NCBI GenBank assembly: GCA_036011265.1
Contig: DASCNB010000011.1
Span: forward strand, 1-51,758
Source of the DNA: Nitrospinota bacterium
GTDB lineage: Bacteria > Nitrospinota > Nitrospinia > CAJXCL01
Length of the DNA: 51,758 nucleotides
Direction: 5' to 3'
The position numbers and the translations under genes are program-made. Shown here one piece after another: positions 18,890 through 51,298 of the stretch. Within the stretch, counting starts at the first letter, position 1. Every line of letters begins with the position of its first letter. The notes under the pieces are model-generated. The model ran no database searches. It was not told the origin of the DNA and was given only the letters and a program-made list of their open reading frames with translations.

Positions 18890-18897
18890 TTAATCTT

Positions 18898-36122: not shown

Positions 36123-36146
36123 TTCCCAACAAACCGGTTCAAGTTA

Positions 36147-38152: not shown

Positions 38153-40189
38153 TCAGCTGGTTTTTTTGGCTAATTGAGAAATGACATTTACAACTCTTTC
38201 AGCTGACGAAAGATCATCATCAGGCAAATTTCTTTTCAAAAAATTTCTCTGGATTTTTAATCTTTCTTCTTTGAAGCTTTTATCGTTACGTAATCTGTCT
38301 AAAGCTGGCGTTAGTTCAAGTGGAGATTTAATCTCAATTGCCACCTTTTCCGCACAAAGAGGTAAAAAAGATGGTTTACCGGGTTTATTATAAACGATCA
38401 CAGGTGTATCGTAATAAATAGCTTCAATACCAACGTTTGAATGTGTCACAACAACTACATCCGATGCAGTTAAAAGATCATGAAGATGATTTCTATAAAT
38501 CGAAATACTATTAATGCCATCCCTAGATTTAAAATTACTTACCAACCACTCAGTACTATCATCAAACATTTTAAGCTTAAAGACAGCCCTAGAATTATTC
38601 CTTTTAACAAATTGTTTGAGAAATAATTCATAGAAGTTTGATAATTCAAAGGTAGATATCGTACCATTTATTATAAATTTGTCATAAAATGGTCCAGCTA
38701 TGGCACGAAGTGCAAAAAGCACAATTTCTTCATTTGCTGAAAATCCCAGCCGTTTGCGAGCATTGTAATAAGATTTCTGAGTTTTTATTTTTAACTTTCC
38801 AAATCTTGGTATACCTGTTAATAATAATTTATCTTGACTAATACCGCGGCAAACTTGCATAAGTTCTTGATACCTAATACCAGAAATTTCATGAGTTGGA
38901 TAAAACGGGAAGTGTTTGATATTGCATGGAAGAGGCGATAAAATTTTACCCCCCACTTTAAATCCCGGCTCAACACTATGAGGAATATGCAATACCGAAA
39001 TTCCATTACGTTTTGCTATTTGTGTAAGAATAATGCGTTTGGCTCCCCATCTTTCACAAATCAAAACGATATTAATATTTTTTTTTTTAATAGTATATTC
39101 TGAAATTTGAAAAAATTTAATTAACTCAGGAATTCTTATTTCAATGATTTCTTTCAAGTATCCATCCATAAAATTTAAAAGTGGTATATCCAGAAACATC
39201 CACCTTGGGTGTTTCCTTTGGAAATTTATCTCTTTTTTAAATCTTAATTTCAAATCAGAAACAAATTCTGAAGTTTTATTATTTTCAAAAAACGAGCCAA
39301 TACCTTTTGTTGAAGCACGAATAATACGAAAATTAAAATAGCAATTATTTTCATCGTCAAAATAATAAAGAAGGCTTTTTTCTTTTCTCAAAAAACTTTC
39401 TATTAAATTATTCCCAAAATAAGTTATATCACTCGCTGATAATGTAAGAGCCCTGACCGAATCATTTTTATTTTTATCTATTAAAAATAATCTTTTTGCT
39501 TGATCTACTGTTCCGACCACAAGTTTTTTGATAAAACGGTTTAGGGCAACATGGCTATAATAGATTAATTTTCCTTCCCAAATATTTTGCTTTTCGAAAC
39601 GCCACTGTTTTAATATTTTCTCAAGCATAAGAAATGATCTGTGAGCTTTTGGTTCACTAATGTATACATCATAATTTTTATAGTTTTTCAGAAATTGAAA
39701 TATTTTTTTATGCAGCAATAAACTGCTTTCTTTATACTTGAGTTCAGGGAGTGAAGGATCATTCACTAAAAGAATTTTATTAGGATTTTCATGTTTCAAA
39801 ATATTAGATACATCAAGAATAGCCTTGTTGAGATAACTAATATAGTAAAAGACCTCCTTCTTTAGAGATGTCCCCAAGGAAATGCCATCAAACTTTGTAA
39901 AGTCATTACCTTCATGATCCTCAAACCACTTTCCGGCTAATTCCACAGCAGAGCACTCAGCTTCTTCATATTCTTTCTGATTTCGATAATTATCTATAGA
40001 CTTGCTTTCGATTCCATTTTTTTTTAAAGCTTTTAAAGTCAATCCGTCACCCGCGATACAAATTGTATCTTTATCAATACAAGATTTAAAAGTTTTCAGA
40101 AATATTTCAACTTCATCAAAATTATCGATAAATGCTAAAGTTTTAACCATTTTTTTGTTACGACTGCGTGTAAGCTTTTGAATATGCAA
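38153..40189 (-). CDS. large GT-B-like protein, possibly Capsule_synth (KpsC/KpsS)-related transferase
   Basis: 678 aa (TTG in the track; ATG alternative at 40150). C-terminal SDVVVVTHSNVGIEAIYYDTPVIVY resembles the ...NStvGlEAl..gkPV... block of capsule-synthesis transferases. The rest is unrecognised. Confidence 0.3.
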   Translation of the reverse strand: MHIQKLTRSRNKKMVKTLAFIDNFDEVEIFLKTFKSCIDKDTICIAGDGLTLKALKKNGIESKSIDNYRNQKEYEEAECSAVELAGKWFEDHEGNDFTKFDGISLGTSLKKEVFYYISYLNKAILDVSNILKHENPNKILLVNDPSLPELKYKESSLLLHKKIFQFLKNYKNYDVYISEPKAHRSFLMLEKILKQWRFEKQNIWEGKLIYYSHVALNRFIKKLVVGTVDQAKRLFLIDKNKNDSVRALTLSASDITYFGNNLIESFLRKEKSLLYYFDDENNCYFNFRIIRASTKGIGSFFENNKTSEFVSDLKLRFKKEINFQRKHPRWMFLDIPLLNFMDGYLKEIIEIRIPELIKFFQISEYTIKKKNINIVLICERWGAKRIILTQIAKRNGISVLHIPHSVEPGFKVGGKILSPLPCNIKHFPFYPTHEISGIRYQELMQVCRGISQDKLLLTGIPRFGKLKIKTQKSYYNARKRLGFSANEEIVLFALRAIAGPFYDKFIINGTISTFELSNFYELFLKQFVKRNNSRAVFKLKMFDDSTEWLVSNFKSRDGINSISIYRNHLHDLLTASDVVVVTHSNVGIEAIYYDTPVIVYNKPGKPSFLPLCAEKVAIEIKSPLELTPALDRLRNDKSFKEERLKIQRNFLKRNLPDDDLSSAERVVNVISQLAKKTS

Positions 40190-40290
40190 CTTTTATTCTC
40201 TGATTTCTTTATATAGATATACAATTTTATCAGGATTGCATGACTTTTCGTAAAGGATGTCTACTCCATAAAGTTGAGGAGTTTTTAGTT

Positions 40291-40675
40291 TTAATGCTTT
40301 CGGAGAAAATCATGCTCTTTTCCCTGTTGATCCCAGTGGTTAATGCGTAACATAGCAGATTGATCAGGCTCTTTTGTTTCACGCATTCTGGTTCCAATGA
40401 TTGCTGGAAGCGCTTTATTTTCCCATTGCTCCGGGGGAACAGACAATAGACGTTTTGAGATGCTGTGGTCCCATTTCTTTGAGATAATTCTAAAAATCTT
40501 TAGAGATATATTGGATTCCATTATCGGAGATGATTTCAGGTTTTACTCCTGGATATTTCTCTAATGCTCTCTCTATGGTAATCTCCATGTCATACTCTGT
40601 CATATTTGTTCTTAACTCATGGTGAAGCATATAACGGGAATAAGCATCTATATGCTCCTGCATTATCATAACTTT
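40291..40675 (-). mobile_element. decayed DDE (rve/integrase-core) transposase remnant
   Basis: My translation is IDAYSRYMLHHELRTNMTEYDMEITIERALEKYPGVKPEIISDNGIQYISKDF, followed by frameshifts and stops, with continuation pieces (KEMGPQHLKTSIV, SNGK-like) in other frames. The N-terminal half is missing and I saw no inverted repeats. Confidence 0.6.
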
Positions 40676-40698
40676 CTCCTACAAAACATTTGTTTGAT

Positions 40699-41277
40699 TT
40701 ATAATGGGACGTTTTTTTTTATATGTAAAAAATCGTTTTTCAAAAACCCTACAGTATGCTTAAATAATACGTTACAACACTCACTAATTGAGAGAGTCTC
40801 AGTATCCAAAATTAGTTCTGGTTTATCAGAAAGTTCATAAGGTTCTGTAACTCCAACAAAAGTGTTGAGTTCACCAGCAAACGCCTTTGCATAGAGTCCT
40901 TTAAAATCTCTTTTTTTACAAACTTCAATCGAACATTTTAAATAAACCTCAATGAATGGGGAGAGCGCTTTTCTGGCAATCTCTCTCATCAACCTTTTGT
41001 GAGATATAGTCGAAACGATAGCCACATTTCCCCTTTGATTACAGTCATTGGCAATTCGTATTACATTCTCAAGAACGGCAAATCGTTCTTCAACTGAACT
41101 CCCATAAATCCGATCAAGTTTTTTTCGCAAAACTTCACCATCCAGAAATTCGGCATTATGATAACCTTCCTGCATTAATTTGTCATAAAGCAATTGACCC
41201 AAAGTTGTTTTTCCGGAAGCCGTGACCCCTGTAATCCAAACAGTTCCTTCAACTAGTTTATTTTTCTTAAGTTGCAT
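40699..41277 (-). CDS. cysC: adenylyl-sulfate (APS) kinase
   Basis: 192 aa. P-loop WITGVTASGKTTLGQLL, FLDGEVLRK, VSTISHKRLMRE, FIEVYLKCSIEVCKKRDFKGLYAKAFAGEL..FVGVTEPYE. Collinear with CysC blocks. 25-nt overlap with the Fe-ADH gene. Confidence 0.8.
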   Translation of the reverse strand: MQLKKNKLVEGTVWITGVTASGKTTLGQLLYDKLMQEGYHNAEFLDGEVLRKKLDRIYGSSVEERFAVLENVIRIANDCNQRGNVAIVSTISHKRLMREIARKALSPFIEVYLKCSIEVCKKRDFKGLYAKAFAGELNTFVGVTEPYELSDKPELILDTETLSISECCNVLFKHTVGFLKNDFLHIKKNVPL

Positions 41278-42353
41278 AATACAATATCTTTATCAAATAA
41301 AAAATTTTTTGATCTTTCATTTTTTATTAAGTACTCGTTGATTTGTTTTAATTCATCTGTATCAAGGTAGTGGTCAATATTCATTGAGATATTTACTTCC
41401 CTATATAAATCCCTAAGCTTATTACCAGAAAGTTCACCGAAAATATTTATTATTGCAGAGTCAACATTTTCATCCATTCCGACAACCAGGTCTATTATAT
41501 TTGGTAAAAAAAAGCTAGAAGCTATGCCATGCGGTATTCCTTTGTTAGCCGTTAAATAGTAAGAAATAGCATGTGCTATAGCCGTTTGTGTATTAGAAAA
41601 TGCGAGTCCGGCATTAAGTGCCGCAAACATCATCCTTTCTCTATATTCAATATTACCTAAATCATTTATTAGTTTTGGCAAAATATGAACAATTTCTTTC
41701 GCAGCGACTATGGCATAATTGGTTGAAATAGGATTTGCATTTCTGTTCCATATTGATTCCAAACTATGAGAAAGTGCATCAAGTGCAGTTTGAACAGTTA
41801 GATCTCTTTGCAAAGACAATGTAAGTTCAGGATCACAAATGCTGACTTCTGACCACAAATCTTCTAAATGCAACGAATATTTTTTCTTTTCATCTGAATC
41901 CCAAACAGTTGCCCAACATGTCACTTCACTCCCTGTACCAGATGTCGTCGGAATAGCTATAAAAGGGATAAGACGGTATCCTTCTCTCTCATTTTTTTTC
42001 CTTATAATGGAATCAATAAAAGTAAAATTTTTATCTTTATTATAAACTGATATTACTTTGCTGGTATCAATAACACTTCCACCACCAAGAGCAATTATGA
42101 CATCAAATTTCTTTTGCCAGACAGATTCATAAATAGACTTCAGATTCTTGAAAGTTGGATTTGGATTAACACTATCAATAATTACTTCTATTTTATCGGT
42201 TAAAGACTGTATTTTCTGAATTAAACCTCTTCTCGAAAAACTCTTTGAAGTAATTAAGAGAGCTTTTCTATTCCCTACAAAGTCATCCAATTTATCTAAT
42301 TTGCCTGTACCGAATTCTATTCTTACTGGATTATAATATTTAAAGCATTTCAT
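41253..42353 (-). CDS. group III iron-containing alcohol dehydrogenase (candidate phosphonoacetaldehyde reductase, FomC/PhpC-like)
   Basis: 366 aa. ALGGGSVIDTSK, PTTSGTGSEVT, and metal-site histidines in ALSHSLES and AHAISY..PHG. The function is proposed from context. Confidence 0.7.
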   Translation of the reverse strand: MKCFKYYNPVRIEFGTGKLDKLDDFVGNRKALLITSKSFSRRGLIQKIQSLTDKIEVIIDSVNPNPTFKNLKSIYESVWQKKFDVIIALGGGSVIDTSKVISVYNKDKNFTFIDSIIRKKNEREGYRLIPFIAIPTTSGTGSEVTCWATVWDSDEKKKYSLHLEDLWSEVSICDPELTLSLQRDLTVQTALDALSHSLESIWNRNANPISTNYAIVAAKEIVHILPKLINDLGNIEYRERMMFAALNAGLAFSNTQTAIAHAISYYLTANKGIPHGIASSFFLPNIIDLVVGMDENVDSAIINIFGELSGNKLRDLYREVNISMNIDHYLDTDELKQINEYLIKNERSKNFLFDKDIVLCNLRKIN

Positions 42354-43120
42354 TTGAACATTTCTTTTGCTTTTTCAAGGTCTTCCATAAAATCTACTTC
42401 AATCCATGGAAAGTTATTTGTAGAACTGCAATATATTTTATTTCCTTCTTCTGCCATTTTGGTAAACGCGAAAGAATCATAATTAGTTAAACCATCTTCA
42501 AATAAAACTTTTTCTACATATTTAAATAGATATTCAGGCTGCTTCACATATGCAATACCTGTCCACTCACCCCCAGCCTTGTCGAGAGAAATTTTTTTAT
42601 CTGATTTAATTAGATAGTTTTCTTCAGTAACTATAACCTTCATCGCTTCTTTATCTGTACTGCCAAAATCTACAACTAACTCTATATTATTATTGTTATC
42701 TTTAAACTGTTGAAGTGTTGAGGATATTATATTTTCATGATAGATAATGTCGCTATGTAAGTACACGAAAGGGCTATTACCAGCAAAAGATTTTGCTAAC
42801 CAAAAAGAGGCGAGGTTGTTTGAAATTTTATAAAACGGGTTGGTTATATAAAATATGTCTTCCTCAAACGACTCAATGATCATATCTTTTTTATAACCAA
42901 CAACGATAGCTATGTCATTAATACCATTTTTTCTCAAAATATCAATGGATCTTTTTAATATTTCTTTACCAGAGACTTTCAGCAAAGCTTTCGGTTTTTC
43001 TGAGGTAATTGGATAAAGTCTGCTGGATATCCCGGCAGCAACGATGATAGCTTTGTCAATCAAATTTTTTTCCGAGAAAAAAGGTGATAAGTATTGGTCG
43101 GTTGAGATTAAGCTCGGCAA
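42350..43120 (-). CDS. stand-alone nucleotidyltransferase (LicC/PntC-like cytidylyltransferase candidate)
   Basis: 256 aa with a TTG start in the track. AIIVAAGISSRLYPITSEKPKALLKV signature. 4-nt overlap with the Fe-ADH gene. Confidence 0.7.
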   Translation of the reverse strand: MPSLISTDQYLSPFFSEKNLIDKAIIVAAGISSRLYPITSEKPKALLKVSGKEILKRSIDILRKNGINDIAIVVGYKKDMIIESFEEDIFYITNPFYKISNNLASFWLAKSFAGNSPFVYLHSDIIYHENIISSTLQQFKDNNNNIELVVDFGSTDKEAMKVIVTEENYLIKSDKKISLDKAGGEWTGIAYVKQPEYLFKYVEKVLFEDGLTNYDSFAFTKMAEEGNKIYCSSTNNFPWIEVDFMEDLEKAKEMFK

Positions 43121-43208
43121 GATAGCATTTAAATATTTGCGTTTTTACGTTATACTACTTTTAAACTTTTCCCCGGCCTTTTATATTTGGTTATGAATAT
43201 TTAGATGA

Positions 43209-44738
43209 TCACGTCTGTTTCTGAAGAAACTTAGCGTCAATGTTATCACCATAGTGATTTTTAAACTTTTCGAAATCTCGATGTTTAAGAAGTTCATTCA
43301 GATAGAGAGTTTTTTCATCTACCCAATGCTCAAATTCATGAGGGTTATTAAATCCAGCAACTTTTATTAGCGAATTCCGATATAAAATATCCCTCTTTCC
43401 CCGCGCATCATCCCACCAAAGGTTTTCTTTCAAAACCTGATGGTAAATTGGCGTTCCAGGAAGTGGAGATAGAATGGCAAGGGAATAACTATCAGCACCA
43501 ACTTGTGCCGCAAAGTCAATCGTTTTTTCCATTTCTTCTCGTGTCTCCCCCGGATATCCAACAATCCAGAAAGTATGGACAGATAATCCTGCTTTTTGGG
43601 CATTTTCCACTGATGGTTGAATTTCCTCTAATTTGAGTTTTTTGTGAATAATATCATCCAGTACTCTCTGTACTCCACTTTCGCAACCGAATGTAATCTG
43701 GTAACAACCAGCATCTGCCATCCTTTTGTATAATTCATATTGTCTGTCTCCTTTTTGGTGATAATTTACCTTTACACCGTTTGGTGTGCACCAGGTAATC
43801 CCAAGATGTTCAATGAGGTTACAAAGTTCAAAAAGATTTTTTCTGTTGGCAGTGAGCGTATCATCTTCGAATTGCACTTCATCAATATCATATTTTTTAA
43901 TTCCTTCTTTAATCTCATCATAGATGTTTTGTGGATCTCTCCATCTTACCTTTTGCCCCCACATTAAAGGAGTTGTGCAAAAACTGCATATTTCAGGGCA
44001 CCCCCTTGATGCCATAACATTAAGCACCCGTCTTGATTTGGATTTACTTGAATGAAACAATCCAATCTTGAAATACCCTTCCAAATTCATGAGATCTCTT
44101 GAAGGAAAAGGAAGTTTGTTGATATCTTCTAAAGGGGAGGGTGCTGGATTAATATAGATTAGATTATTTTTAAAGTAAATTAATCCAGGAATATCTTTGG
44201 GATCTTGCTCATTAATAAGTCTTTTTACAAGCTCAGCAAATTGATACTCAACCTCTCCTCTCATAGCAAAATCAATGTTCCTATCCTGCAGATCAACCAT
44301 TTCTCCTGGAACTCTCACATCAGGATGTTTACAGGCAAATTGATAATCTCTCACTGCATTGCTGATATGATTTCCTCCAAGAATTACTTTAACTTTGGGA
44401 TTTACAGTTTTTGCAATCTTTGCAATGGTATAAGCATGATCCATCATGTTAGAGAAGAGAACTGAAACACCAATAATGTCTGGATTTAAGCTGGCAATAT
44501 AAGATGCTATATTTTCATTAGATTCACCAATAAGTACTATTTTATCATCAAGATTTTTCTCATTGCGATATCCCTCTAAAGCACAATCTCTTATGTAAAC
44601 TGCATGACCAGATTTTCTGAGTACCGATCCTAAATATCCAACACCTAACCCTGGTTGAATACGGTTAATACCGCTTTTCATCCCTTTTATGTTGGGTATC
44701 ATTAAAAGAACTCGTGCTTGCTTTGCCATGTTTGGCAC
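43209..44738 (-). CDS. B12-binding-domain radical SAM enzyme (class B) #4, Fom3-like by context
   Basis: 509 aa. VLLMIPN...LGVGYLGSVLRKSGH...DIIGVSVLFS B12-like domain, then ASRGCPEICSFCTT and FGCESG. Located between the Ppd and NTase/ADH genes. Confidence 0.75.
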   Translation of the reverse strand: MPNMAKQARVLLMIPNIKGMKSGINRIQPGLGVGYLGSVLRKSGHAVYIRDCALEGYRNEKNLDDKIVLIGESNENIASYIASLNPDIIGVSVLFSNMMDHAYTIAKIAKTVNPKVKVILGGNHISNAVRDYQFACKHPDVRVPGEMVDLQDRNIDFAMRGEVEYQFAELVKRLINEQDPKDIPGLIYFKNNLIYINPAPSPLEDINKLPFPSRDLMNLEGYFKIGLFHSSKSKSRRVLNVMASRGCPEICSFCTTPLMWGQKVRWRDPQNIYDEIKEGIKKYDIDEVQFEDDTLTANRKNLFELCNLIEHLGITWCTPNGVKVNYHQKGDRQYELYKRMADAGCYQITFGCESGVQRVLDDIIHKKLKLEEIQPSVENAQKAGLSVHTFWIVGYPGETREEMEKTIDFAAQVGADSYSLAILSPLPGTPIYHQVLKENLWWDDARGKRDILYRNSLIKVAGFNNPHEFEHWVDEKTLYLNELLKHRDFEKFKNHYGDNIDAKFLQKQT

Positions 44739-45016
44739 CTATTTATGCATTATTTCCACAAAATTTTAAAAAAATATTGCTATAAAAATTGAAATTGAAC
44801 ACGTTGCTTCTTCTTTGGGAATAGAAGGCTTCATTCCGCAAAAATCATTTTTTATCACATGCCCTTAAAGAAACGCGATGATACTCTTATACAGTGAAAA
44901 AATCGACCTGTGCCTTACCTTTTCTTACAAACTATTTCAAATTGCCTTCTCTGACAATGTAATACGTTGTTTGACGTACTTTCCCTTTAATATTCTCATC
45001 GAATAAATATAAAATT

Positions 45017-46132
45017 TTAATTTCGAAGTTTGTCTATAAATATCCTCTTATTTTCTTCAGGTGTTATTGTTGGCCTTATAAGGTTTTCCCTTGATCCTTT
45101 TTTTATCTTAATAACTATTATTGTTGGGCATTTTTTAATTTTTTTCAGAGTTGTTAAAATATCTGCTACCGTTAAACAAGTTATAGATTCACTATACCCA
45201 CAACCTAACGCTATGGAAGCTATATCTATTTTATCAGAGACAGTGGGCTGTCCTCCTGTTGATTCATACGCGTTATTGTCAAAAACTATATGTATCAAGT
45301 TATTAGGAGCATAAAAACCTATTGTAGCTAAAGTTCCCATGTGCATAATAACACTTCCATCACCATCAAATACATAAATCTTCTTTTCGGGTTTTTGTTT
45401 AGCGATTTCTAATGCTATTGAAGAACAGTGTCCCATGGAACCAACCGTGTAGAAATCATTGCTATGTCCGGTACCACATTCCTCTCTGTATTCAAAAAGC
45501 TCTCTGGAAGTCTTTCCAGTAGTAGCAACAATAATCTCGTTACCGTTAAAAGAATCAATAATAGCCCTTATTGCCTGATCTTTCGTTAATGGTAAGTCGC
45601 TTTTTACCCTTATTCCTGAGTCATACTCTTCCAACAATTCATTCCTAACTATTAATGCAACAGGCATACTTTCACACACTGCCTTGTTCTTGACCTTTTC
45701 TATCTGGTACTTTATCTTATCTTCTTCGAGAATCTCATAGTAAATTTCCAGCTTTTTAAGTAAAGGGAGCATAATTCTACCCATTTTCTTATGTTGTGGC
45801 TCATCCTTTTTCCCTGGTTCTCCTCTCCAACCTGTCATAAGTATCATTGGAATACTAAAAACTTCAGGATCTGCAAGAGAGGTTAATGGATTAATGCAAT
45901 TGCCAATTCCGGAATTTTGCAAGTAAACAACACCAATTTTATTAGTAGCAAGATAATATCCTGCCGCATGAGCTACTGCTGCACCTTCATTTGAGGCTAT
46001 CCTATTAGTCAGCATATCGCTGTTTGCGGCAAGATAACTCATCCATTGCTTAAAAGTGCTATCCGGAACACCGCTAAAATAGACTAAATCATTTTTTTTA
46101 AAAATTTCAAACAGGTTTTCACATGCTATCAT
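45017..46132 (-). CDS. ppd: phosphonopyruvate decarboxylase (ThDP-dependent)
   Basis: 371 aa, a typical Ppd length. N-terminal FSGVPDSTFKQW. ThDP motif FDGDGSVIMHMGTLATIG...FDNNAYESTGGQ. Immediately downstream of PEP mutase. Confidence 0.8.
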   Translation of the reverse strand: MIACENLFEIFKKNDLVYFSGVPDSTFKQWMSYLAANSDMLTNRIASNEGAAVAHAAGYYLATNKIGVVYLQNSGIGNCINPLTSLADPEVFSIPMILMTGWRGEPGKKDEPQHKKMGRIMLPLLKKLEIYYEILEEDKIKYQIEKVKNKAVCESMPVALIVRNELLEEYDSGIRVKSDLPLTKDQAIRAIIDSFNGNEIIVATTGKTSRELFEYREECGTGHSNDFYTVGSMGHCSSIALEIAKQKPEKKIYVFDGDGSVIMHMGTLATIGFYAPNNLIHIVFDNNAYESTGGQPTVSDKIDIASIALGCGYSESITCLTVADILTTLKKIKKCPTIIVIKIKKGSRENLIRPTITPEENKRIFIDKLRN

Positions 46133-46329
46133 TGTATGCTACCCTTTGACAGTGTTTAGCGGATTTCCCGTGGCTTGCTACTGAGTTTCAGCGTGAGTTC
46201 AGCCCAACGCTTGATAAGCAAATTCAAAAAGAAATTGTACTCTACTCTGAAGCTCTCCAACAGCTTACCTCTCGGAGTTTCAATATTCTTTTCTGTAGAA
46301 AAGCTACTAATGCTCGTAATATAAAAAAA

Positions 46330-47964
46330 CTACATATCCATAAAAAAAGAATGGGCTAATTTGTAATTTTCAAAATTCCTAATTTCAATCCAGCCACTAT
46401 TAACCTCAATACCGTATACACTTACTCCTTTATCAATTATTTTTTGTATAATCTGTAGAAAATGTTTTCTCTGTTCTGGTAACTCTATTTTGCTTTTCTG
46501 CTGACGATAAGCATCCTTGAAAATCGCTATCCCTTTTTTTGAAAAATAGGATATTCCTATATATTCAAATTTTGCTTTTTGTGGATCCATATCTTTTCCA
46601 ATTTGAAGAATTTCATTCTCTTTTTCCTGGAACATCTTTCTTTCACCTTTTATTGGATCTTTTTTGGCAACAATATAATCAATAGATGAATCTTTTCTTG
46701 GCATTGAACTATTCATCAGCAAAACTATATCAGAAGAGGTATGGAGTAATTTTTTTATAATCGATTTTTCAAAAAGAACATCAGAAAATATTATCAAGGT
46801 ACGACTGTTTAAACTATCCCTTACCAGCATAATTGAATCGACAAGTGAAGTGTTTTCAAAATCGGCATTATTAAGATAAGTTACACCTTCCAGTTTAAAC
46901 TTCTCTGAATTGTAACCTGTAATTACTGTAATATCGTATAAACGTAGCCTACTAAGAGTTTCAACATTCCTCTGAAGAATAGATTTTCCGTTAATATCAA
47001 GCATTGCAATTGGATAATCTTTAACTATATCCTCCAAAGATTCTTCATAGCTCGGATCTCCCGCAGCAGGGATTATAACTTTTATATCGCTTAATTCTTT
47101 TTTCAAATATAATTTATCCGCTTCCTTAAGTCGTGACATCCCTTGCAATTCAAATACAGTATTCATTGATACGATCGACTTATCAATGGTTTTCAAATTT
47201 TTTCCACTTTTTATAACTTTAAGAACTTTGTTAACAGCCTTGATAGCAGCCCTTATGCAATGATTTGCATAAATTATCATTTTTATACCCATCTCGGCCA
47301 TTTCCTCGACATGTGGCAGAGGATAGGTTGTGGGTACAACAATAAGGGGCGCCCTTTTATTCCATCTTCTACAAAATTCCTTTATTTCTGATATATCTTT
47401 TGCCTTGGAATGTATTAAGATAGCATCTGCGCTCGCATCTACATACGCATTTGCCCTTTTTATAGCTTCATCTATACCCCAACCGGCAATGAGGGCCTCT
47501 ACCCTTGCAAACACCATAAAATTTTCATCTTCCTGAGCGCTCTTTGCTGCCATAATTTTTCCAACAAATTCTGCAATGGAAGCCAGTTCCTGTTTGCCCG
47601 GAACAAAGCTATTCATTTTTGGAAATAATTTATCTTCAATACATACAGCGGCTATATTTGCTGCTTCATATTTTTTTACCATATGGATTACATTATTTGT
47701 ATTTCCATACCCTGTATCACAATCAGCTACAACAGGGATTGTTATTGACTCGTTCATTTCACAAGAACGTTCCAAGTATTGACTCATTGTTAAAATACTG
47801 GAATCAGGAACTGCAAAAGAGGTCGATATCTCCAAACCAGACGCCCATACCCCATCAAACCCGTTTCTTTCAACAAGTTTTGCGCCCAAGCCATCATGAG
47901 CACCGACAATTTTTATTATTTTGTCTTTCTTAAAGAGTTCTCTCAGTTTTTCTGATTTTTTCAT
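46330..47964 (-). CDS. pepM: phosphoenolpyruvate mutase fused to a C-terminal nucleotidyltransferase domain
   Basis: 544 aa. The first about 290 aa are GAHDGLGAKLVERNGFDGVWASGLEIS...CIEDKLFPKMNSF, carrying the PepM-diagnostic EDK-x5-NS motif. The last about 250 aa (about 46330-47082) are an NTP-transferase fold: VIIPAAGDPS...LDINGKSILQ. Confidence 0.85.
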   Translation of the reverse strand: MKKSEKLRELFKKDKIIKIVGAHDGLGAKLVERNGFDGVWASGLEISTSFAVPDSSILTMSQYLERSCEMNESITIPVVADCDTGYGNTNNVIHMVKKYEAANIAAVCIEDKLFPKMNSFVPGKQELASIAEFVGKIMAAKSAQEDENFMVFARVEALIAGWGIDEAIKRANAYVDASADAILIHSKAKDISEIKEFCRRWNKRAPLIVVPTTYPLPHVEEMAEMGIKMIIYANHCIRAAIKAVNKVLKVIKSGKNLKTIDKSIVSMNTVFELQGMSRLKEADKLYLKKELSDIKVIIPAAGDPSYEESLEDIVKDYPIAMLDINGKSILQRNVETLSRLRLYDITVITGYNSEKFKLEGVTYLNNADFENTSLVDSIMLVRDSLNSRTLIIFSDVLFEKSIIKKLLHTSSDIVLLMNSSMPRKDSSIDYIVAKKDPIKGERKMFQEKENEILQIGKDMDPQKAKFEYIGISYFSKKGIAIFKDAYRQQKSKIELPEQRKHFLQIIQKIIDKGVSVYGIEVNSGWIEIRNFENYKLAHSFFMDM

Positions 47965-47985: not shown

Positions 47986-48963
47986 TTATCTCTTTCCAAT
48001 TAAATATCTGCTTTCATATTCCCCAGCCAAGGTATTTAAAATTTGAAAATATTCGCTCGATGTATTTTTTTTTATAAACTTCAATTTTCTTTCTTTATCC
48101 TTAACGTCAATTTTCCTGGGAACCCTTTGTTTTTTTAAAGAACGGGTAGTTTTCTTTGTTACTTCTGACCTTATTAAATTTGAAATTAACTCCAGATATT
48201 TATTCGGTGATTCAGCAAACTTTTCAAAAGGAATAAATAGAACCTGTTTTTTTACCGATTCGGAAAGTGATTCATATTTGTTCAGCGACTCTTTAGTAAA
48301 AATATCCACAATTTTAATTAATCGATCTATCGGAGAAATTTTTAAAAATTCCTCAACCCAGCCTGAAGCATAGTAAAGGACATCACCATCTATGCTTTTT
48401 ATAGCCAACTGCCATAGGCGAGGGTTTAATCCAGTACCAACTCCATGACCGCGATCATCCAACGAATAAACCAAATCAACCGGGTGCCTAACCATCTCAA
48501 TCACCCGGAGCCTATCTCCATAAGCATCGATGTATAAATCTATCCTTCGTAAAATATCATGAGTCTGAACTAAAAAAATGGGTCTTTCCTTTTCTATTCT
48601 TTCTAAAACAATATCGCCTTCTTTAGAAAACAACCTCTTAAAATACTTGAGAAAATTTAAACTACTGAAAACCCCTGTACGATCACTAATTTTAAAATTT
48701 GTGTTTCGAGAAATCATTGAATCATATAGTTTCATGTCTATTTCACGACATAGCAAAGCCAGAGCTGCATCCTTCGTGATTTTTTCAAAACTATATAACA
48801 GCGGGATTGATTCAAGGATTGGTTCCATACGCTCTATTTCTACTCTGTCAAAACTACTCAATATTGGCCCTAACATCGATTTCCCTGTACGAGGAAGTCC
48901 GTCTACCAAAATCAACTCTTTAACAATTCTATTGCTTCTTGCAAATTCAATATCCCGCATCAC
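47986..48963 (-). CDS. sulfotransferase-family protein (candidate PAPS-dependent)
   Basis: 325 aa. 5'-PSB-like GLPRTGKSML near the N-terminus and 3'-PB-like MVRHPVDLVYS about 130 aa later. Confidence 0.5.
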   Translation of the reverse strand: MMRDIEFARSNRIVKELILVDGLPRTGKSMLGPILSSFDRVEIERMEPILESIPLLYSFEKITKDAALALLCREIDMKLYDSMISRNTNFKISDRTGVFSSLNFLKYFKRLFSKEGDIVLERIEKERPIFLVQTHDILRRIDLYIDAYGDRLRVIEMVRHPVDLVYSLDDRGHGVGTGLNPRLWQLAIKSIDGDVLYYASGWVEEFLKISPIDRLIKIVDIFTKESLNKYESLSESVKKQVLFIPFEKFAESPNKYLELISNLIRSEVTKKTTRSLKKQRVPRKIDVKDKERKLKFIKKNTSSEYFQILNTLAGEYESRYLIGKR

Positions 48964-49294: not shown

Positions 49295-51298
49295 TTATAA
49301 TGACTCTTCATTGCTATATTTTACTTCTCTTCTTAAAAAATTTATTCCTCCTACCCTAAATAAGAGGTTTGAAATCCCTTGATCCGAATTTCCAAAGAGC
49401 TTGAGTCTGGAATTTATTTCGCTTGCGGATTCTTTGTATATGTAAAAAGTACAATTCAAGCTTCCTTTAAATTCATAGAGTTTTTTAGAGGATGTGTCGT
49501 CAAACCACTCGGGCATATTGTAGTCAAATGATTTTTCAATAGGCTCGTCGTAAGAGTTTTTGAGATTAATATATCTTGATATCGTGAATTCTTTCAAATT
49601 CTCCAGTTCCGTGTCATCATGATCGGGTGCTAAATTCTTTATAAAAAAATCAACCATCAAACCTGCATAATCAGTGATTAACAAAGCATAGTAGGTCTGT
49701 ACGAGATTACCACCGATTTCACCTTTTAATACTTTTGAAAAATTTTCTTCATTTGAGCAATAATTTTTTAATTCTTCGACAGTCTCAAATAGCTCTCCTT
49801 CTGCATCGTTTCTATACCTATTAAAAACATCAACAAGGTTATTGGGGGCGGATTCAGAATTTTCGACCAAGGCCTTAATAAACTCATAGAAATTCTGCCC
49901 TTCTTTAATGTATTTTAGAAGTGGTTCAAAAAGCACACTGTGCACAGTCTTCATAATCAACTGCAGAAAACGGGATTTTTTGTAATCTTGTAAACTAAAC
50001 TTATTTGTAGAAACACATATTTCTTCGTATTCAAAACAGTTTTCGCCAAAAAACCTTCCGATATCACGCGGTAAAATCCTGAACCTTGTTTGCATATTAT
50101 ATCTATCTCTAAATTCCTTTGTCTTGATCTCGGTACCATTTAACATCATTAAATTGTGCACAAATACATTGTCAACCCCTGCAGAAATCATAAACCTATA
50201 GGATTCAAAATGACTTTCAAGCGTTTCCATAGGCAAAGGCAGGATTGTTTGGCCTTCAAGTTTATCATCCGGGTTATTAAACGAGTCTTTCAGCTGAATA
50301 TAGGTATTGGCATCGATATTTTTTCTTTTAATGGTTTTTAATGTATCAGGATTTGTGGATTGCAGTGCCGCACGGATAGTTATTGTGCCTGGCTTTAATA
50401 TATTAACAGCTTTGATAACTTTATAAGCATCCTTTCCAGTAGCAACAGTAATACTTTGCGGCCAGTTTTTCTTATCTTGAAGCGTCCGAATAAACTTACA
50501 AATCTCAATATCCCTGGGAAACATTGCAAAATTGCTATCTGTAATATGAAGTAGGGATTTTTGGGCTTTGTTTGAAATATAATCTAATTCCGCCTTTACT
50601 CGTTCAATAGAAAAAAATCTTACCTTGCTATATGTTTTATTGCCCTCATAACAATAAACACAAGAAAACGGACATCCTCTTGTAGTCTGCATCATAGGAA
50701 GAAGCTTTGTATTAAAAAACTTATCCATTGTACCATCTAGATATGGAGAAGGAATCTCTTCTAGCTTTTCATGCCTATAAAAGGGTGAATCAGATGAGAC
50801 AATATCACCATTGCCAGAGAGACAAATAACTCCGTTATGCACATTTTTTTTTATTTTTTTAATTTCGCCATTTTCCTTAATATAATTGCTTACTATGTTT
50901 TCAAATGGTATCTCGCCATCACCACAAACATAATAATCTATATATGGCCTGTCTCTTAAGAATTTTCCCTGACTGCTTAAATCGTAAGAAATATTTGAAC
51001 CACCCATAACTGTCAAAAGATTACTATTCTGTTTTTTAAACTTCCGCAATATCAATGATGATAATTCCAATGTCCACGGATAATTAGTTGTACCCAATAT
51101 GTCTGGAAAGTTCCTATTAATTTTTTCCTCTAATTCATCGACAAATCTAAATATTTCTACACTTACTTTTTCAGCTAAAACTTTTTTTAAGTATGATGAT
51201 AAAAAACTGATCGAAAGAGGAAAAACATAGTTTGATAACACCCGGTTTTCGTATACAGGATCTATCAAGTAAATGGTTACTCTCTTATTGTCAGACAT
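49295..51298 (-). CDS. B12-binding-domain-like radical SAM enzyme #5 with a long C-terminal extension
   Basis: 667 aa. N-terminal Rossmann-like region (VTIYLIDPV...DILGTTNYPW...VMGGSN), TTRGCPFSCVYCYEG, and about 250 aa of unrecognised C-terminal sequence. Confidence 0.7.
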   Translation of the reverse strand: MSDNKRVTIYLIDPVYENRVLSNYVFPLSISFLSSYLKKVLAEKVSVEIFRFVDELEEKINRNFPDILGTTNYPWTLELSSLILRKFKKQNSNLLTVMGGSNISYDLSSQGKFLRDRPYIDYYVCGDGEIPFENIVSNYIKENGEIKKIKKNVHNGVICLSGNGDIVSSDSPFYRHEKLEEIPSPYLDGTMDKFFNTKLLPMMQTTRGCPFSCVYCYEGNKTYSKVRFFSIERVKAELDYISNKAQKSLLHITDSNFAMFPRDIEICKFIRTLQDKKNWPQSITVATGKDAYKVIKAVNILKPGTITIRAALQSTNPDTLKTIKRKNIDANTYIQLKDSFNNPDDKLEGQTILPLPMETLESHFESYRFMISAGVDNVFVHNLMMLNGTEIKTKEFRDRYNMQTRFRILPRDIGRFFGENCFEYEEICVSTNKFSLQDYKKSRFLQLIMKTVHSVLFEPLLKYIKEGQNFYEFIKALVENSESAPNNLVDVFNRYRNDAEGELFETVEELKNYCSNEENFSKVLKGEIGGNLVQTYYALLITDYAGLMVDFFIKNLAPDHDDTELENLKEFTISRYINLKNSYDEPIEKSFDYNMPEWFDDTSSKKLYEFKGSLNCTFYIYKESASEINSRLKLFGNSDQGISNLLFRVGGINFLRREVKYSNEESL

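What the first reader, a model, noticed from the sequence alone, without database searches (positions are those of the whole stretch)
41253..47964. Fosfomycin-like early phosphonate pathway without epoxidase, inside a glycan locus: predicted CMP-activated, C-methylated hydroxyalkylphosphonate donor
Seen in the sequence: five co-directional minus-strand genes. They are the PepM-NTase fusion (EDKLFPKMNSF motif), a ThDP decarboxylase of Ppd length, a B12-binding radical SAM (ASRGCPEICSFC), a stand-alone NTase, and an Fe-ADH that overlaps the NTase by 4 nt. Established knowledge: PepM plus Ppd give phosphonoacetaldehyde, and FomC/PhpC-type Fe-ADHs reduce it to 2-hydroxyethylphosphonate (HEP). In Streptomyces fosfomycin biosynthesis the cytidylyltransferase domain of Fom1 makes CMP-HEP. 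The B12-radical SAM Fom3 then C-methylates it to CMP-2-hydroxypropylphosphonate, after which FomD hydrolyses it and HppE epoxidises it. Inference: the window encodes the same five activities in one operon. I find no cupin HppE-like epoxidase, no FomD-like hydrolase, and no AEP transaminase next to the module. The nucleotide-activated hydroxy(propyl)phosphonate is therefore probably the end donor, and is transferred to a glycan or lipid. To my knowledge, known phosphonoglycans carry AEP, N-methyl-AEP or similar head groups. A C-methylated hydroxyalkylphosphonate decoration would be new.
Basis: partly seen in the sequence, partly recalled or inferred. Interest (0 to 1): 0.85.

Follow-up and report, generated by a model that had tools for sequence, protein, structure and literature searches.

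The report
Fosfomycin-like phosphonate module decorating a glycan
A marine bacterium's surface-sugar gene cluster carries the early steps of the fosfomycin antibiotic pathway but not the late ones, plus an unusual kinase, so it probably attaches a new nucleotide-activated carbon-phosphorus group to the cell surface rather than making the antibiotic.

Summary
In detail: five co-directional minus-strand genes at the stated coordinates encode a PepM-NTase fusion, Ppd, a cobalamin radical SAM enzyme (rSAM), an NTase and a PhpC-type Fe-ADH.

- No HppE, FomD, FomA/B or AEP transaminase occurs in the window, in 10 kb beyond it, or in 87 related loci.
- The rSAM is only 30% identical to authentic Fom3 and forms its own widespread marine clade. 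That clade is collinear with Fom3 over its full length. In loci with ≥10 kb of flank it sits beside PepM or Ppd in 24 of 33 cases, often next to true Fom1/Fom2/FomC orthologues.
- The NTases are LicC/PntC-type, not Fom1-type.
- HEP- and methylphosphonate-bearing glycans are already known, so only the C-methylated head group would be new.

An APS-kinase-like gene overlaps the Fe-ADH gene by 25 nt. Its closest relatives worldwide are fused to LicC-like NTases, to PepM-NTase or to a sulfotransferase domain. This suggests a 3'-phosphorylated CMP-phosphonate donor, as in Campylobacter MeOPN biosynthesis. A sulfotransferase-fold gene lies 21 nt upstream of PepM.

The product, the site of methylation and the transferase are all inferred.

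The parts
47095..47964 (-). PEP mutase domain (residues 1-290 of the 544-aa fusion protein)
   Evidence: PF13714 E 3.9e-56; TIGR02320 319.2 bits against a cutoff of 319.55. The Ppm-specific motif EDKLFPKMNS is at residue 110. 37% identical to the PepM part of Streptomyces Fom1.
46330..47094 (-). C-terminal LicC/PntC-like nucleotidyltransferase domain fused to PepM
   Evidence: PF12804 is weak (E 6.5e-4). The best solved relatives are LicC 1JYK and PntC Tde1415 6PD1. 36-39% identical to the equivalent domain in L016 and in the triple fusion P0404.
45017..46132 (-). Phosphonopyruvate decarboxylase (Ppd)
   Evidence: TIGR03297 444.8 bits, above the 312.5 cutoff. 40% identical to Streptomyces Fom2 over its full length.
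43209..44738 (-). Cobalamin-dependent (class B) radical SAM enzyme of a marine clade related to Fom3; an alternative ATG start lies at 44729
   Evidence: PF02310 plus PF04055, with CPEICSFC. 30% identical to Fom3-cluster protein P0153 over 484 aa, E 7e-70. hhalign against the Fom3 family gives probability 100%, E 8e-93, 453 columns. The clade is monophyletic with 80% bootstrap. The AF2 model has pLDDT 89.7 and its top fold hits are MgmA, TsrM, AprD4 (a diol dehydratase), CysS, TokK and OxsB.
42350..43120 (-). Stand-alone LicC/PntC-like nucleotidyltransferase
   Evidence: PF00483 E 2.7e-13 and PF12804 E 7.9e-11. Best solved relatives are LicC 1JYK (E 8.5e-15) and PntC 6PD1. 42% identical to the NTase next to a CDP-OH_P_transf gene in L016.
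41253..42353 (-). PhpC-type Fe-dependent alcohol dehydrogenase (phosphonoacetaldehyde reductase)
   Evidence: TIGR03405 385.4 bits (cutoff 423.7); the next best family scores 173 bits. Authentic FomC scores only 157 bits on the same model. It overlaps the NTase gene by 4 nt.
40699..41277 (-). Divergent APS-kinase-like kinase, proposed 3'-kinase of the CMP-phosphonate
   Evidence: PF01583 E 1.3e-37. It overlaps the Fe-ADH gene by 25 nt. Its closest relatives among 1.84 billion representatives are fusions: APS_kinase+NTP_transf_3 (P0379, P0383, P0391), APS_kinase+PEP_mutase+NTP_transf_3 (P0404) and APS_kinase+Sulfotransfer_3 (P0381). The subfamily signature is DGE / G(H,Y,S)S / S-H, against DGD / GFS / S-P in canonical enzymes. 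A homologue lies next to the rSAM or the Fom1-like gene in 14 related loci.
47986..48963 (-). Sulfotransferase-fold protein, 21 nt upstream of PepM; candidate group transferase using a 3'-phosphonucleotide donor
   Evidence: Many homologues carry PF13469 or PF00685. K28, H135 and R159 are invariant in the family. The AF2 model has pLDDT 94.5, and all 45 PDB fold hits at E <= 0.001 are PAPS sulfotransferases, with TPST2 3ap1 at E 8e-8. Homologues occur with ATP sulfurylase (L092), with CysNC/CysD (L093) and with a Cj1415-1418-like set (L094).
38153..40189 (-). 678-aa protein with a C-terminal TagF-like CDP-glycerol glycerophosphotransferase domain; alternative candidate transferase
   Evidence: PF04464 E 7e-10 over residues 441-670. 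Unrelated TagF-like genes flank the rSAM in 7 related loci. However, a 51%-identical orthologue exists in L092, which has no phosphonate genes.
40490..40663 (-). Integrase (rve) gene fragment in the 509-nt gap between the kinase gene and the TagF-like gene
   Evidence: Precomputed PF00665 hit on the 57-aa product in L090/L091; translation checked. It marks a recombination scar at the edge of the module.
49295..51298 (-). Second cobalamin radical SAM enzyme (KedN5-like), 331 nt upstream of the sulfotransferase-fold gene; membership of the module is uncertain
   Evidence: NF033712 156 bits, below its cutoff; PF04055 and PF02310. Weak homologues lie near the rSAM in several related loci.

Best explanation
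The five genes and the APS-kinase-like gene that overlaps the last of them form one module. The module makes a nucleotide-activated hydroxyalkylphosphonate for decorating the nonulosonic-acid-type surface glycan encoded by the rest of the locus. It does not make fosfomycin.

Proposed steps, with their basis:
1. PEP to phosphonopyruvate, by the PepM domain (family membership, strong).
2. To phosphonoacetaldehyde, by Ppd (family membership, strong).
3. To 2-hydroxyethylphosphonate (HEP), by the PhpC-type Fe-ADH (near family membership).
4. To CMP-HEP, by one of the two LicC/PntC-like NTases (inferred from homology; CTP as the nucleotide is assumed).
5. Modification of the CMP-bound phosphonate by the cobalamin radical SAM enzyme. 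By analogy with Fom3 this is most likely C-methylation, giving CMP-hydroxypropylphosphonate. The substrate is inferred from gene context. The regiochemistry and the number of methyl groups are unknown.
6. 3'-phosphorylation of the cytidine nucleotide by the divergent APS-kinase-like enzyme. This gives a PAPS-like donor (inferred from gene fusions and from the Cj1415 precedent). Its order relative to step 5 is unknown.
7. Transfer of the phosphonyl group to the glycan. The candidates are the sulfotransferase-fold protein next to PepM and the TagF-like protein downstream (speculative).

No FomD hydrolase or HppE epoxidase is present, so the activated ester is the end product of the module.
For: Absence of Fom4, FomD, FomA, FomB and AEPT:
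- the window plus 10 kb beyond it;
- all 87 related loci.

The rSAM belongs to the Fom3-related superclade:
- Authentic Fom3 (Q56184 = P0284) and the window protein both hit NF038361 best, at 301 and 258 bits.
- The family profiles align over 453 columns at E 8e-93.
- The NJ tree places the window family as sister to Fom3 and its relatives, away from three of the window's other four B12-rSAMs (the fourth, at 49295-51298, shows no BLAST similarity at all).

Context of the rSAM family:
- In loci with at least 10 kb of flank, 24 of 33 carry PepM or Ppd and 23 of 33 carry an NTase.
- Many carry true Fom1 orthologues, with the CyTase domain 60-68% identical to the Streptomyces one, plus Fom2 and FomC.
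- More distant superclade members show the same context (L096, L095).
- CMP-releasing transferases sit beside the rSAM in 19 of the 87 loci.

Kinase:
- It overlaps the ADH gene by 25 nt.
- It is adjacent to the rSAM or Fom1 gene in 14 loci.
- Rosetta-stone fusions link it to NTase, PepM-NTase and a sulfotransferase domain.
- It has a subfamily-specific active-site signature.

Glycan context.
Against: - No chemistry was measured; every step after Ppd rests on homology or context.
- The rSAM is only 30% identical to Fom3 and lies in a separate clade.
- 9 of 33 well-flanked family loci show no PepM or Ppd, so the family may not act only on phosphonates.
- The window holds five B12-rSAMs, so sugar C-methylation is common in this locus.
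- The kinase passes the curated APS-kinase cutoff (140.8 against 138.7 bits).
- The sister locus L092 has orthologues of the sulfotransferase-fold protein (56%), DUF4910 (73%) and the TagF-like protein (51%), a truncated copy of the kinase gene, and an ATP sulfurylase. It has no phosphonate genes. In the window these genes could therefore simply sulfate the glycan.
- No LicD or CDP-alcohol transferase is present in the window, so the transferase is unassigned.
Confidence: 0.5

Rival explanations
1. The head group is plain 2-HEP, transferred from CMP-HEP. The radical SAM enzyme inside the module works on something else, for example C-methylation of a sugar or another glycan substituent, like the other B12-rSAMs in the locus.
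For: The window has five B12-rSAM and two SPASM rSAM genes spread through a glycan locus. 9 of 33 well-flanked family loci lack PepM and Ppd. HEP esters on polysaccharides are already known (PMC5649143).
Against: The gene sits between Ppd and the NTase inside the module. The family and the wider superclade are persistently linked to PepM, Ppd, a CyTase and an Fe-ADH across phyla. Three of the window's other four B12-rSAMs fall outside this superclade, and the fourth shows no BLAST similarity to it.
Confidence: 0.2
2. The radical SAM enzyme acts on the phosphonate but does not perform Fom3-type C2-methylation. Alternatives are P-methylation to a phosphinate (as in Sden_1168/PhpK), C1-methylation, iterative methylation or a rearrangement.
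For: The best curated model is the Sden_1168 P-methyltransferase family (258 bits). Identity to Fom3 is only 30%. A second B12-rSAM follows directly in L005, L013 and L016, which suggests multi-step alkylation in relatives. Solved class-B folds include iterative methylases (TokK, CysS) and non-methylases (OxsB).
Against: The scores are far below the family cutoffs: 258 against 575 for Sden_1168, and 114 against 600 for PhpK. Fom3, a C-methylase, itself hits the same model best. P-methylation needs an H-phosphinate, and no HEPD/PhpD-PhpE-type genes that could make one were seen in the window's Pfam scans.
Confidence: 0.15
3. The late steps are ordinary. The APS-kinase-like enzyme and the sulfotransferase-fold protein sulfate the glycan with PAPS. 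The unphosphorylated CMP-phosphonate is transferred by the TagF-like protein or by an unidentified enzyme.
For: - L092 pairs orthologues of these genes with an ATP sulfurylase and has no phosphonate genes.
- L093 pairs an ST homologue with CysNC, CysD and CysH.
- The kinase passes the TIGR00455 cutoff.
- The ST model matches only PAPS sulfotransferases.
- TagF-like genes flank the rSAM in 7 loci.
Against: - No ATP sulfurylase lies in the window or in 10 kb beyond it.
- The kinase subfamily is fused to LicC-like NTases and to PepM-NTase.
- It is embedded in compact phosphonate clusters that show no sulfotransferase (L084, L088).
- It lacks the GFS and S-P motifs found in most of the more distant library hits (ranks 76-150: F 56/75, P 67/75) and in both solved structures examined.
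Confidence: 0.35
4. The module makes a free, secreted phosphonate small molecule (an antibiotic-like compound) rather than a glycan decoration.
For: It is related to the fosfomycin early pathway. Some related loci (L001-L003) are compact and include ABC-transporter and phosphate-binding-protein genes.
Against: There is no hydrolase to release the phosphonate, no epoxidase and no FomA/FomB-type resistance kinase. The module is embedded in a one-strand glycan locus of more than 50 kb with glycosyltransferases, NeuB, a NeuA-like gene and a Wzx flippase. Transferases that release CMP are recurrent neighbours.
Confidence: 0.05

Closest known systems
Early fosfomycin pathway of Streptomyces (Fom1, Fom2, FomC, Fom3)
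   Same: The order of chemistry is the same: PepM, Ppd, Fe-ADH reduction to HEP, cytidylylation, then a cobalamin radical SAM enzyme acting on the CMP ester (PMC8158854). The rSAM is a full-length homologue of Fom3. Relatives of the window rSAM sit beside Fom1 orthologues that are 60-68% identical in the CyTase domain.
   Different: FomD, HppE (Fom4) and FomA/B are absent. The NTase is C-terminal and LicC-like, not the N-terminal PF01467 domain. The rSAM is 30% identical and in a separate clade. The genomic setting is a glycan locus. A kinase is added.
Phosphonyl tailoring (Pnt) pathway with PntC cytidylyltransferases (Rice et al. 2019, PMC6697681)
   Same: PepM is fused to, and also adjacent to, LicC-like PF12804-type NTases. 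A CMP-phosphonate serves as donor for cell-surface tailoring. PntC Tde1415 (6PD1) is among the best solved relatives of both NTases.
   Different: There is no AEP transaminase, so the substrate is a hydroxy- rather than an aminophosphonate. The module adds a cobalamin rSAM and an APS-kinase-like enzyme. No LicD-type transferase is present in the window.
Campylobacter jejuni MeOPN donor synthesis (Cj1415-Cj1418)
   Same: An NTP_transferase-family cytidylyltransferase is followed by an APS-kinase-family enzyme. Together they are reported to yield a 3'-phosphorylated cytidine donor (CDP-phosphoramidate 3'-phosphate) for capsule decoration (PMC11800397). The marine locus L094 has the same four domain types, and its kinase shares the G-H-T variant of the motif.
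   Different: The transferred group would be a C-P phosphonate rather than a phosphoramidate. No glutamine kinase or amidase is present. The role of the kinase here is inferred from fusions and was not tested.
PAPS synthesis and PAPS-dependent sulfotransferases
   Same: The logic is the same: a nucleotidyl transfer makes a mixed anhydride, an APS-kinase-fold enzyme phosphorylates the 3'-OH, and a sulfotransferase-fold enzyme with 5'-PSB and 3'-PB elements uses the donor. Kinase-NTase fusions mirror the sulfurylase-kinase fusions of PAPS synthases.
   Different: No ATP sulfurylase is in the locus. The kinase subfamily departs from canonical motifs. The proposed donor is a cytidine phosphonate.
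Sden_1168 / PhpK cobalamin radical SAM P-methyltransferases
   Same: This is the best-scoring curated model for the window rSAM, and also for Fom3. The family is phosphonate-associated and class B.
   Different: The scores are far below the family cutoffs. The window offers no route to the H-phosphinate substrate that P-methylation needs.
Methylphosphonate- and HEP-esterified marine polysaccharides (Nitrosopumilus, HMW-DOM)
   Same: They are marine, glycan-bound alkyl- or hydroxyalkylphosphonate esters made through PepM, Ppd and an Fe-ADH (PMC5649143, PMC9381506).
   Different: Those head groups are made by MpnS, or are plain HEP. No cobalamin rSAM, nucleotide 3'-kinase or C-methylated head group has been described for them in the papers I could search.

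Membership tests
Streptomyces-type fosfomycin pathway | PEP mutase with the EDKxxxxxNS motif, plus phosphonopyruvate decarboxylase | tested here: met
   PF13714, TIGR02320 and the motif at residue 110. TIGR03297 444.8 bits, above the 312.5 cutoff.
Streptomyces-type fosfomycin pathway | Fom1 architecture: an N-terminal PF01467 cytidylyltransferase fused to PepM | tested here: not met
   The window fusion is PepM followed by a C-terminal LicC-like domain, with no PF01467 hit. The feature is met in related loci L001-3, L007, L010 and others.
Streptomyces-type fosfomycin pathway | A Fom3 orthologue (CMP-HEP C2-methyltransferase) | tested here: inconclusive
   It is a full-length homologue (E 7e-70; hhalign E 8e-93), but only 30-32% identical and in a separate clade. 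Activity cannot be tested here.
Streptomyces-type fosfomycin pathway | Late enzymes FomD (DUF402) and HppE/Fom4 (cupin), and resistance kinases FomA/FomB | tested here: not met
   tblastn with the L009 proteins gives no hit at E <= 1e-3 in any related locus (no L009 protein hits the window even at E <= 5) and no such Pfam domains. Only about 62 kb of the genome was visible.
Pnt phosphonyl-tailoring pathway (PntC) | A LicC-like (PF12804/PF00483) cytidylyltransferase fused or adjacent to PepM | tested here: met
   Nucleotide and substrate specificity were not tested.
Pnt phosphonyl-tailoring pathway (PntC) | An AEP transaminase supplying AEP as the tailored head group | tested here: not met
   No class-V aminotransferase is present. 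The only aminotransferase is a DegT-type enzyme 30 kb away.
Class B cobalamin-dependent radical SAM enzymes | An N-terminal B12-binding Rossmann domain plus a CxxxCxxC radical SAM barrel | tested here: met
   PF02310 E 4e-15, PF04055 E 1e-21, CPEICSFC. The AF2 model's best fold hits are MgmA, TsrM, AprD4, CysS, TokK and OxsB.
Sden_1168 / PhpK P-methyltransferases | A score above the curated family cutoff | tested here: not met
   NF038361 258 against 575 bits; TIGR04479 114 against 600 bits.
PhpC/FomC-type phosphonoacetaldehyde reductases (TIGR03405) | An Fe-ADH scoring on the phosphonate-associated model and located beside PepM and Ppd | tested here: inconclusive
   385.4 bits against a cutoff of 423.7, so just below. 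The next family scores 173 bits, and authentic FomC scores only 157. The context requirement is met.
Adenylyl-sulfate kinase (CysC) | A score above the curated cutoff | tested here: met
   TIGR00455 140.8 against 138.7 bits.
Adenylyl-sulfate kinase (CysC) | The canonical DGD, L-G-F-S/T and S-P motifs, and partnership with ATP sulfurylase | tested here: not met
   The window has DGE, Y-G-S-S and S-H. Its nearest relatives are fused to NTase, PepM or ST rather than to a sulfurylase, and no sulfurylase lies in the locus.
PAPS-type sulfotransferase fold | A P-loop-like 5'-PSB with catalytic Lys, a catalytic His, a 3'-PB Arg/Ser, and the sulfotransferase fold | tested here: met
   GLPRTGKS and RHPVDLVYS are present. 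K28, H135 and R159 are invariant. pLDDT is 94.5 and all 45 PDB hits at E <= 0.001 are sulfotransferases. The functional roles of these residues are assigned from memory of SULT enzymes.
MeOPN-type donor system (Cj1415-1418) | Glutamine kinase, amidase, cytidylyltransferase and 3'-kinase all present | tested here: not met
   Only the NTase and kinase types are present in the window. The full set is seen in L094. The comparison is about how the module works, not about membership.

The most novel reading that the evidence does not exclude
The divergent APS-kinase-like enzyme 3'-phosphorylates the CMP-hydroxyalkylphosphonate. The resulting 3'-phospho-CMP-phosphonate is a PAPS-like donor, and the sulfotransferase-fold protein next to PepM uses it to phosphonylate the glycan.

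This would be a third natural class of 3'-phosphonucleotide group-transfer donors, after PAPS and 3'-phospho-CDP-amidate. The sister locus L092, which has an ATP sulfurylase where the window has the phosphonate genes, would then be a cassette swap that feeds the same kinase-transferase pair with a different group.

The head group would be a C-methylated hydroxyalkylphosphonate not yet reported on any glycan. The gene set is widespread in marine plankton.
Probability: 0.25. Interest if true: 0.9.

Novelty: new variant of a known kind. Interest (0 to 1): 0.7.

Why it matters
[quoted passage not shown] The genes and head groups behind most of this pool are poorly known.

This window belongs to a large, mostly marine set of loci: 386 metagenomic stretches encoding relatives were found in one scan. 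These loci combine fosfomycin-type early enzymes with a Fom3-related cobalamin enzyme and lack the antibiotic's late steps.

If the prediction holds, three things follow:
- It defines a new glycan or lipid head group, a C-methylated hydroxyalkylphosphonate.
- It ties vitamin B12 supply to phosphonate production in the sea.
- It shows that the 'antibiotic' enzyme Fom3 is an offshoot of a much broader cell-surface pathway.

From memory only (Repeta et al. 2016, which I could not check in the library), C-P lyase degradation of marine DOM releases propylene as well as methane and ethylene. A 2-hydroxypropylphosphonate ester would be a natural source of propylene.

The kinase-NTase-PepM fusions also point to a testable new kind of activated donor.

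Tried and rejected
**Getting the Fom3 sequence**
- Paper supplements and author manuscripts did not hold it.
- I then queried the protein database with a sequence recalled from memory. The top cluster contains UniProt Q56184 itself (P0284) and lies in a complete fosfomycin cluster.
- All comparisons use the database sequences, not the recalled one.

**Uninformative or empty searches**
- The promoter and terminator scan of 38-51.7 kb was no better than shuffles.
- Literature searches for this cluster type, for hydroxypropylphosphonate on glycans and for propylene from DOM phosphonates found nothing relevant.
- The supplement naming the Campylobacter strains of GCF 385 is not held.
- The Cj1415 paper is not held.

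**Readings rejected or weakened**
- A CDP-polyol (Gtp1-3-like) reading is rejected. The Fe-ADH scores 385 bits on the PhpC model and 31 bits or less on glycerol and glycerol-1-phosphate dehydrogenase models, and PepM and Ppd are present.
- A P-methyltransferase reading is rejected as the main explanation.
- The TagF-like protein as a dedicated phosphonyl transferase is weakened, because L092 has a 51%-identical orthologue and no phosphonate genes.

**Tests that could not be completed**
- I could not read the diagnostic motifs of the kinase in L092, because the gene is truncated after about 55 residues at the contig end.
- The Candidatus Pseudothioglobus contig (L097) ends 1.1 kb upstream of the rSAM, so it gives no named-organism example of the full cluster.
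- The genome-collection scan returned only 4 loci because its peptide patterns were too specific.

**Caveats on sequences from memory**
The motif conclusions rest on the PDB fragments and on library sequences instead.
- The function of the motif residues, such as the Phe stacking on adenine, is also from memory.

Full report
**1. Observation**

| Coordinates | Product | Key evidence |
|---|---|---|
| 46330-47964 | PepM + C-terminal NTase-like domain | PF13714 E 3.9e-56; TIGR02320 319.2 bits vs cutoff 319.55; EDKLFPKMNS at residue 110 |
| 45017-46132 | Ppd | TIGR03297 444.8 bits vs cutoff 312.5 |
| 43209-44738 | Cobalamin radical SAM enzyme | B12-binding domain, radical SAM core, CPEICSFC |
| 42350-43120 | NTase | PF00483/PF12804 |
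| 41253-42353 | Fe-ADH | Overlaps the NTase gene by ATGA |

The Fe-ADH scores 385 bits on TIGR03405, the PhpC/PsrA-type phosphonate-associated model. Its next best family scores 173 bits. Authentic FomC scores only 157 bits on the same model. PsrA is described as a PhpC homologue in PMC13576164.

The module is larger than reported.
- An APS-kinase-like gene (40699-41277) overlaps the ADH gene by 25 nt.
- A 325-aa gene (47986-48963) ends 21 nt upstream of PepM.

**2. Setting**

The whole window is a one-strand glycan locus with GC near 34%.
- It encodes GT2 and GT4 glycosyltransferases, sugar epimerases and dehydratases, a DegT aminotransferase and methyltransferases.
- It also encodes five B12-binding rSAMs and two SPASM rSAMs.
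- Beyond the right end lie a NeuA-like CTP_transf_3 gene, a carbamoyltransferase, NeuB and a Wzx flippase.

Identical proteins occur on many Tara and JGI contigs. They also occur in MAGs labelled either Gammaproteobacteria or Nitrospinota, so the source is an uncultured marine bacterium.

**3. Is the radical SAM enzyme Fom3-like?**

I recovered authentic Fom3 (UniProt Q56184 = P0284). Its cluster representative P0153 lies in a complete fosfomycin cluster: Fom3, cupin Fom4, DUF402 FomD, FomA, FomB, Fom1, Fom2 and FomC.

Sequence comparison:
- The window protein is 30% identical to P0153 over 484 residues (E 7e-70).
- Profiles of the two families align over 453 columns, nearly end to end, at E 8e-93.
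- Both proteins have the same best curated model, the Sden_1168 family, at 258 and 301 bits. Both are far below its 575-bit cutoff.
- PhpK scores 114 bits.

All-against-all BLAST and a bootstrapped NJ tree show three groups:
- the window family, monophyletic at 80% bootstrap;
- the Fom3 family with its near relatives;
- a large intermediate group.

All three are separate from three of the window's other four B12-rSAMs; the fourth (49295-51298) shows no BLAST similarity to the window rSAM or to Fom3. The AF2 model (pLDDT 89.7) matches cobalamin rSAM structures best: MgmA, TsrM, CysS, TokK and OxsB, together with the diol dehydratase AprD4.

The enzyme therefore belongs to the Fom3-related superclade but is not a Fom3 orthologue.

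**4. Comparative context**

The family is common. 822 database proteins match at E <= 1e-10. One metagenome scan found 386 stretches encoding relatives.

I examined 87 loci by tblastn.

| Subset | Loci | PepM or Ppd | Any NTase | CMP-releasing transferase |
|---|---|---|---|---|
| At least 10 kb of flank | 33 | 24 | 23 | 12 |
| All | 87 | 36 | 38 | 19 |

- Many loci carry true Fom1 orthologues. The CyTase domain is 60-68% identical, and the PepM domain 56-62% identical, to the Streptomyces protein. Fom2 and FomC homologues accompany them.
- The architectures closest to the window are L016 (PepM-NTase, rSAM, Ppd, Fe-ADH, NTase, CDP-OH_P_transf) and L013 (PepM-NTase, CyTase, Fe-ADH, APS-kinase-like, rSAM, second rSAM, LicD).
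- More distant superclade members repeat the theme. L096 has CDP-OH_P_transf, a CyTase, the rSAM, Fom1, Fom2 and FomC. L095 has a CyTase fused to an Fe-ADH.
- No locus has a Fom4, FomD, FomA or FomB homologue.
- Enzymes that release CMP while transferring a phospho-group sit beside the rSAM in 19 loci: TagF-like in 7, CDP-alcohol phosphatidyltransferase in 11, and LicD in L013.

This pattern is the main support for a CMP-bound phosphonate that is modified by the rSAM and then used as a donor. The caveat is that 9 of the 33 well-flanked loci show no phosphonate genes.

**5. The NTases**

Both window NTases find LicC (1JYK) and the AEP cytidylyltransferase PntC Tde1415 (6PD1) as their best solved relatives. 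They are Pnt-type enzymes as described by Rice et al. (PMC6697681). They are not the PF01467 domain of Fom1. No AEP transaminase is present, so a hydroxyphosphonate is the likely substrate.

**6. The sixth gene**

The APS-kinase-like protein passes the curated APS-kinase cutoff by 2 bits, but it is atypical.

- An exhaustive HMMER search of 1.84 billion representatives gave only 37 hits at E <= 1e-30.
- The closest hits include fusions:

| Protein | Domain architecture | Note |
|---|---|---|
| P0379 (rank 1), P0383, P0391 | APS_kinase + NTP_transf_3 | LicC-like NTase |
| P0404 | APS_kinase + PEP_mutase + NTP_transf_3 | 57% and 39% identical to the two window domains |
| P0381 (rank 3) | APS_kinase + Sulfotransfer_3 | |

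- Canonical enzymes, including the sulfurylase fusion P0438, the CysN-CysC type P0421 and the solved structures, appear further down the list.
- They carry DGD, L-G-F-S and S-P. The window subfamily has DGE, G-(H/Y/S)-S and S-H. At the S-P site, H occurs in 25 of the top 30 hits, and P in 67 of ranks 76-150.
- The kinase gene lies next to the rSAM or Fom1 gene in 14 related loci, including compact clusters with no sulfotransferase.
- A marine locus, L094, carries the same four domain types. Its kinase has the G-H-T variant.

I infer that the kinase phosphorylates the 3'-OH of the CMP-phosphonate. This is an inference from fusions and analogy, not a demonstrated activity.

**7. The transferase**

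The 325-aa protein upstream of PepM has a sulfotransferase fold.
- Many of its homologues carry PF13469 or PF00685.
- K28, H135 and R159 are invariant in the family.
- The model has pLDDT 94.5, and all 45 PDB matches at E <= 0.001 are PAPS sulfotransferases.

Its homologues occur in three settings: with an ATP sulfurylase (L092), with CysNC/CysD/CysH (L093), and with the MeOPN-like set (L094).

L092 is a sister locus. It has orthologues of the ST-fold protein (56%), DUF4910 (73%) and the TagF-like protein (51%), and a truncated kinase gene. An ATP sulfurylase sits where the window has its phosphonate genes. An integrase fragment lies at the edge of the window module.

Two readings fit.
- The window retains ordinary sulfation and has gained a phosphonate cassette.
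- The cassette replaces the sulfurylase as the supplier of the kinase-transferase pair.

I cannot decide between them without the whole genome or assays. The TagF-like protein remains a candidate, but its presence in L092 weakens the case for it.

**8. Comparison with what is known, and novelty**

The module works like the early fosfomycin pathway grafted onto a Pnt-type cell-surface tailoring system, with a MeOPN-like kinase step added. It fails membership tests for the fosfomycin pathway: no Fom1-type fusion, no orthologous Fom3 and no late enzymes. It also fails for the AEP-type Pnt pathway, having no transaminase.

Li and Horsman (PMC8942020) list, among unclassified neighbourhoods, Campylobacter clusters in which ppm-ppd is flanked by radical SAM and adenylylsulfate kinase genes. 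The co-occurrence has therefore been seen, but not explained.

I found no paper in the searchable library that describes this cluster type or a hydroxypropylphosphonate-bearing glycan.

HEP and methylphosphonate esters on marine polysaccharides are established (PMC5649143, PMC9381506).

**9. Verdict**

This is a real and well-delimited feature. The product is unproven, the rSAM is not an orthologue of Fom3, and the kinase probably changes what the donor is. I rate it a new variant of a known kind, with interest 0.7.

Noticed in passing
window 7276-8379, 8389-9816, 13312-14829, 20010-21086, 31874-33475, 43209-44738, 49295-51298: One 52-kb glycan locus holds five B12-binding radical SAM genes and two SPASM radical SAM genes, and a further B12-rSAM lies just beyond the right end (L090). 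This is an unusually high density of radical chemistry for a surface-glycan cluster.
   Followed up: partly
window 40490-40663 (minus strand), in the 509-nt gap 40190-40698: A 57-aa integrase (rve) fragment lies between the kinase gene and the TagF-like gene. It suggests that the phosphonate module arrived or was rearranged by recombination.
   Followed up: partly
L092 1-13097: Sister locus: PK/PUA_2 and ATP-sulfurylase genes, then the ST-fold gene (56% identical), DUF4910 (73%), the TagF-like gene (51%) and a truncated APS-kinase gene. It has no phosphonate genes, so the sulfurylase and the phosphonate cassette look interchangeable at this position.
   Followed up: partly
L094 1-9050: A marine metagenome contig carries a complete Cj1415-1418-like domain set (a 960-aa PPDK-like kinase, Peptidase_C26, an NTase and an APS-kinase-like gene). 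Beside it lie an ST-fold homologue, NeuB and a NeuA-like gene. This looks like a MeOPN-type phosphoramidate pathway outside Campylobacter.
   Followed up: no
P0404, P0379, P0383, P0391, P0381 (representative library): Multi-domain fusions: APS_kinase+PEP_mutase+NTP_transf_3, APS_kinase+NTP_transf_3 and APS_kinase+Sulfotransfer_3. The Ppm fusion inventory of PMC6697681 reports PF12804, PF01467 and two TPP-domain fusions (which together account for all of its percentages) and no APS-kinase fusion.
   Followed up: partly
L095 4970-7763: A PF01467 cytidylyltransferase is fused to an Fe-ADH (512 aa). Next to it are two tandem B12-rSAMs, a HIT-family protein and a LicC-like NTase. No PepM lies within the 12 kb seen.
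   Followed up: no
L005 1806-3299, L013 11660-13150, L016 13856-15343, L095 1209-2723: A second, distinct B12-rSAM family repeatedly sits immediately next to the Fom3-superclade rSAM. This suggests two successive radical steps in those relatives. The window has no member of this second family at that position.
   Followed up: partly
L001 4321-5067 and 14 other loci: A PhyH-type Fe(II)/2-oxoglutarate dioxygenase is a frequent neighbour of the window-family rSAM (15 of 87 loci). This hints at hydroxylated variants of the head group. None is present in the window.
   Followed up: no
L008 7315-9753, L044 4243-6696, L049 7312-9750: In loci that lack PepM, a TonB-dependent receptor and a DUF6580 gene lie directly upstream of the rSAM. 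They may serve cobalamin uptake for the B12 enzyme.
   Followed up: no
window 15864-18119, 18137-19320, 33581-36806: Acyl-chemistry genes are embedded in the glycan locus: an FkbH-like/TPR protein, a ketoacyl reductase, a MaoC dehydratase, an AMP-binding ligase, an HMGL-like aldolase and a cyclase. They suggest an unusual acyl or hydroxy-acid substituent on the glycan.
   Followed up: no
window 36816-38105; L007 221-1426; L092 9020-10315: A DUF4910/DUF2172/HTH_47 aminopeptidase-like protein recurs in these nonulosonic-acid glycan loci, with or without phosphonate genes. Its role is unknown.
   Followed up: no
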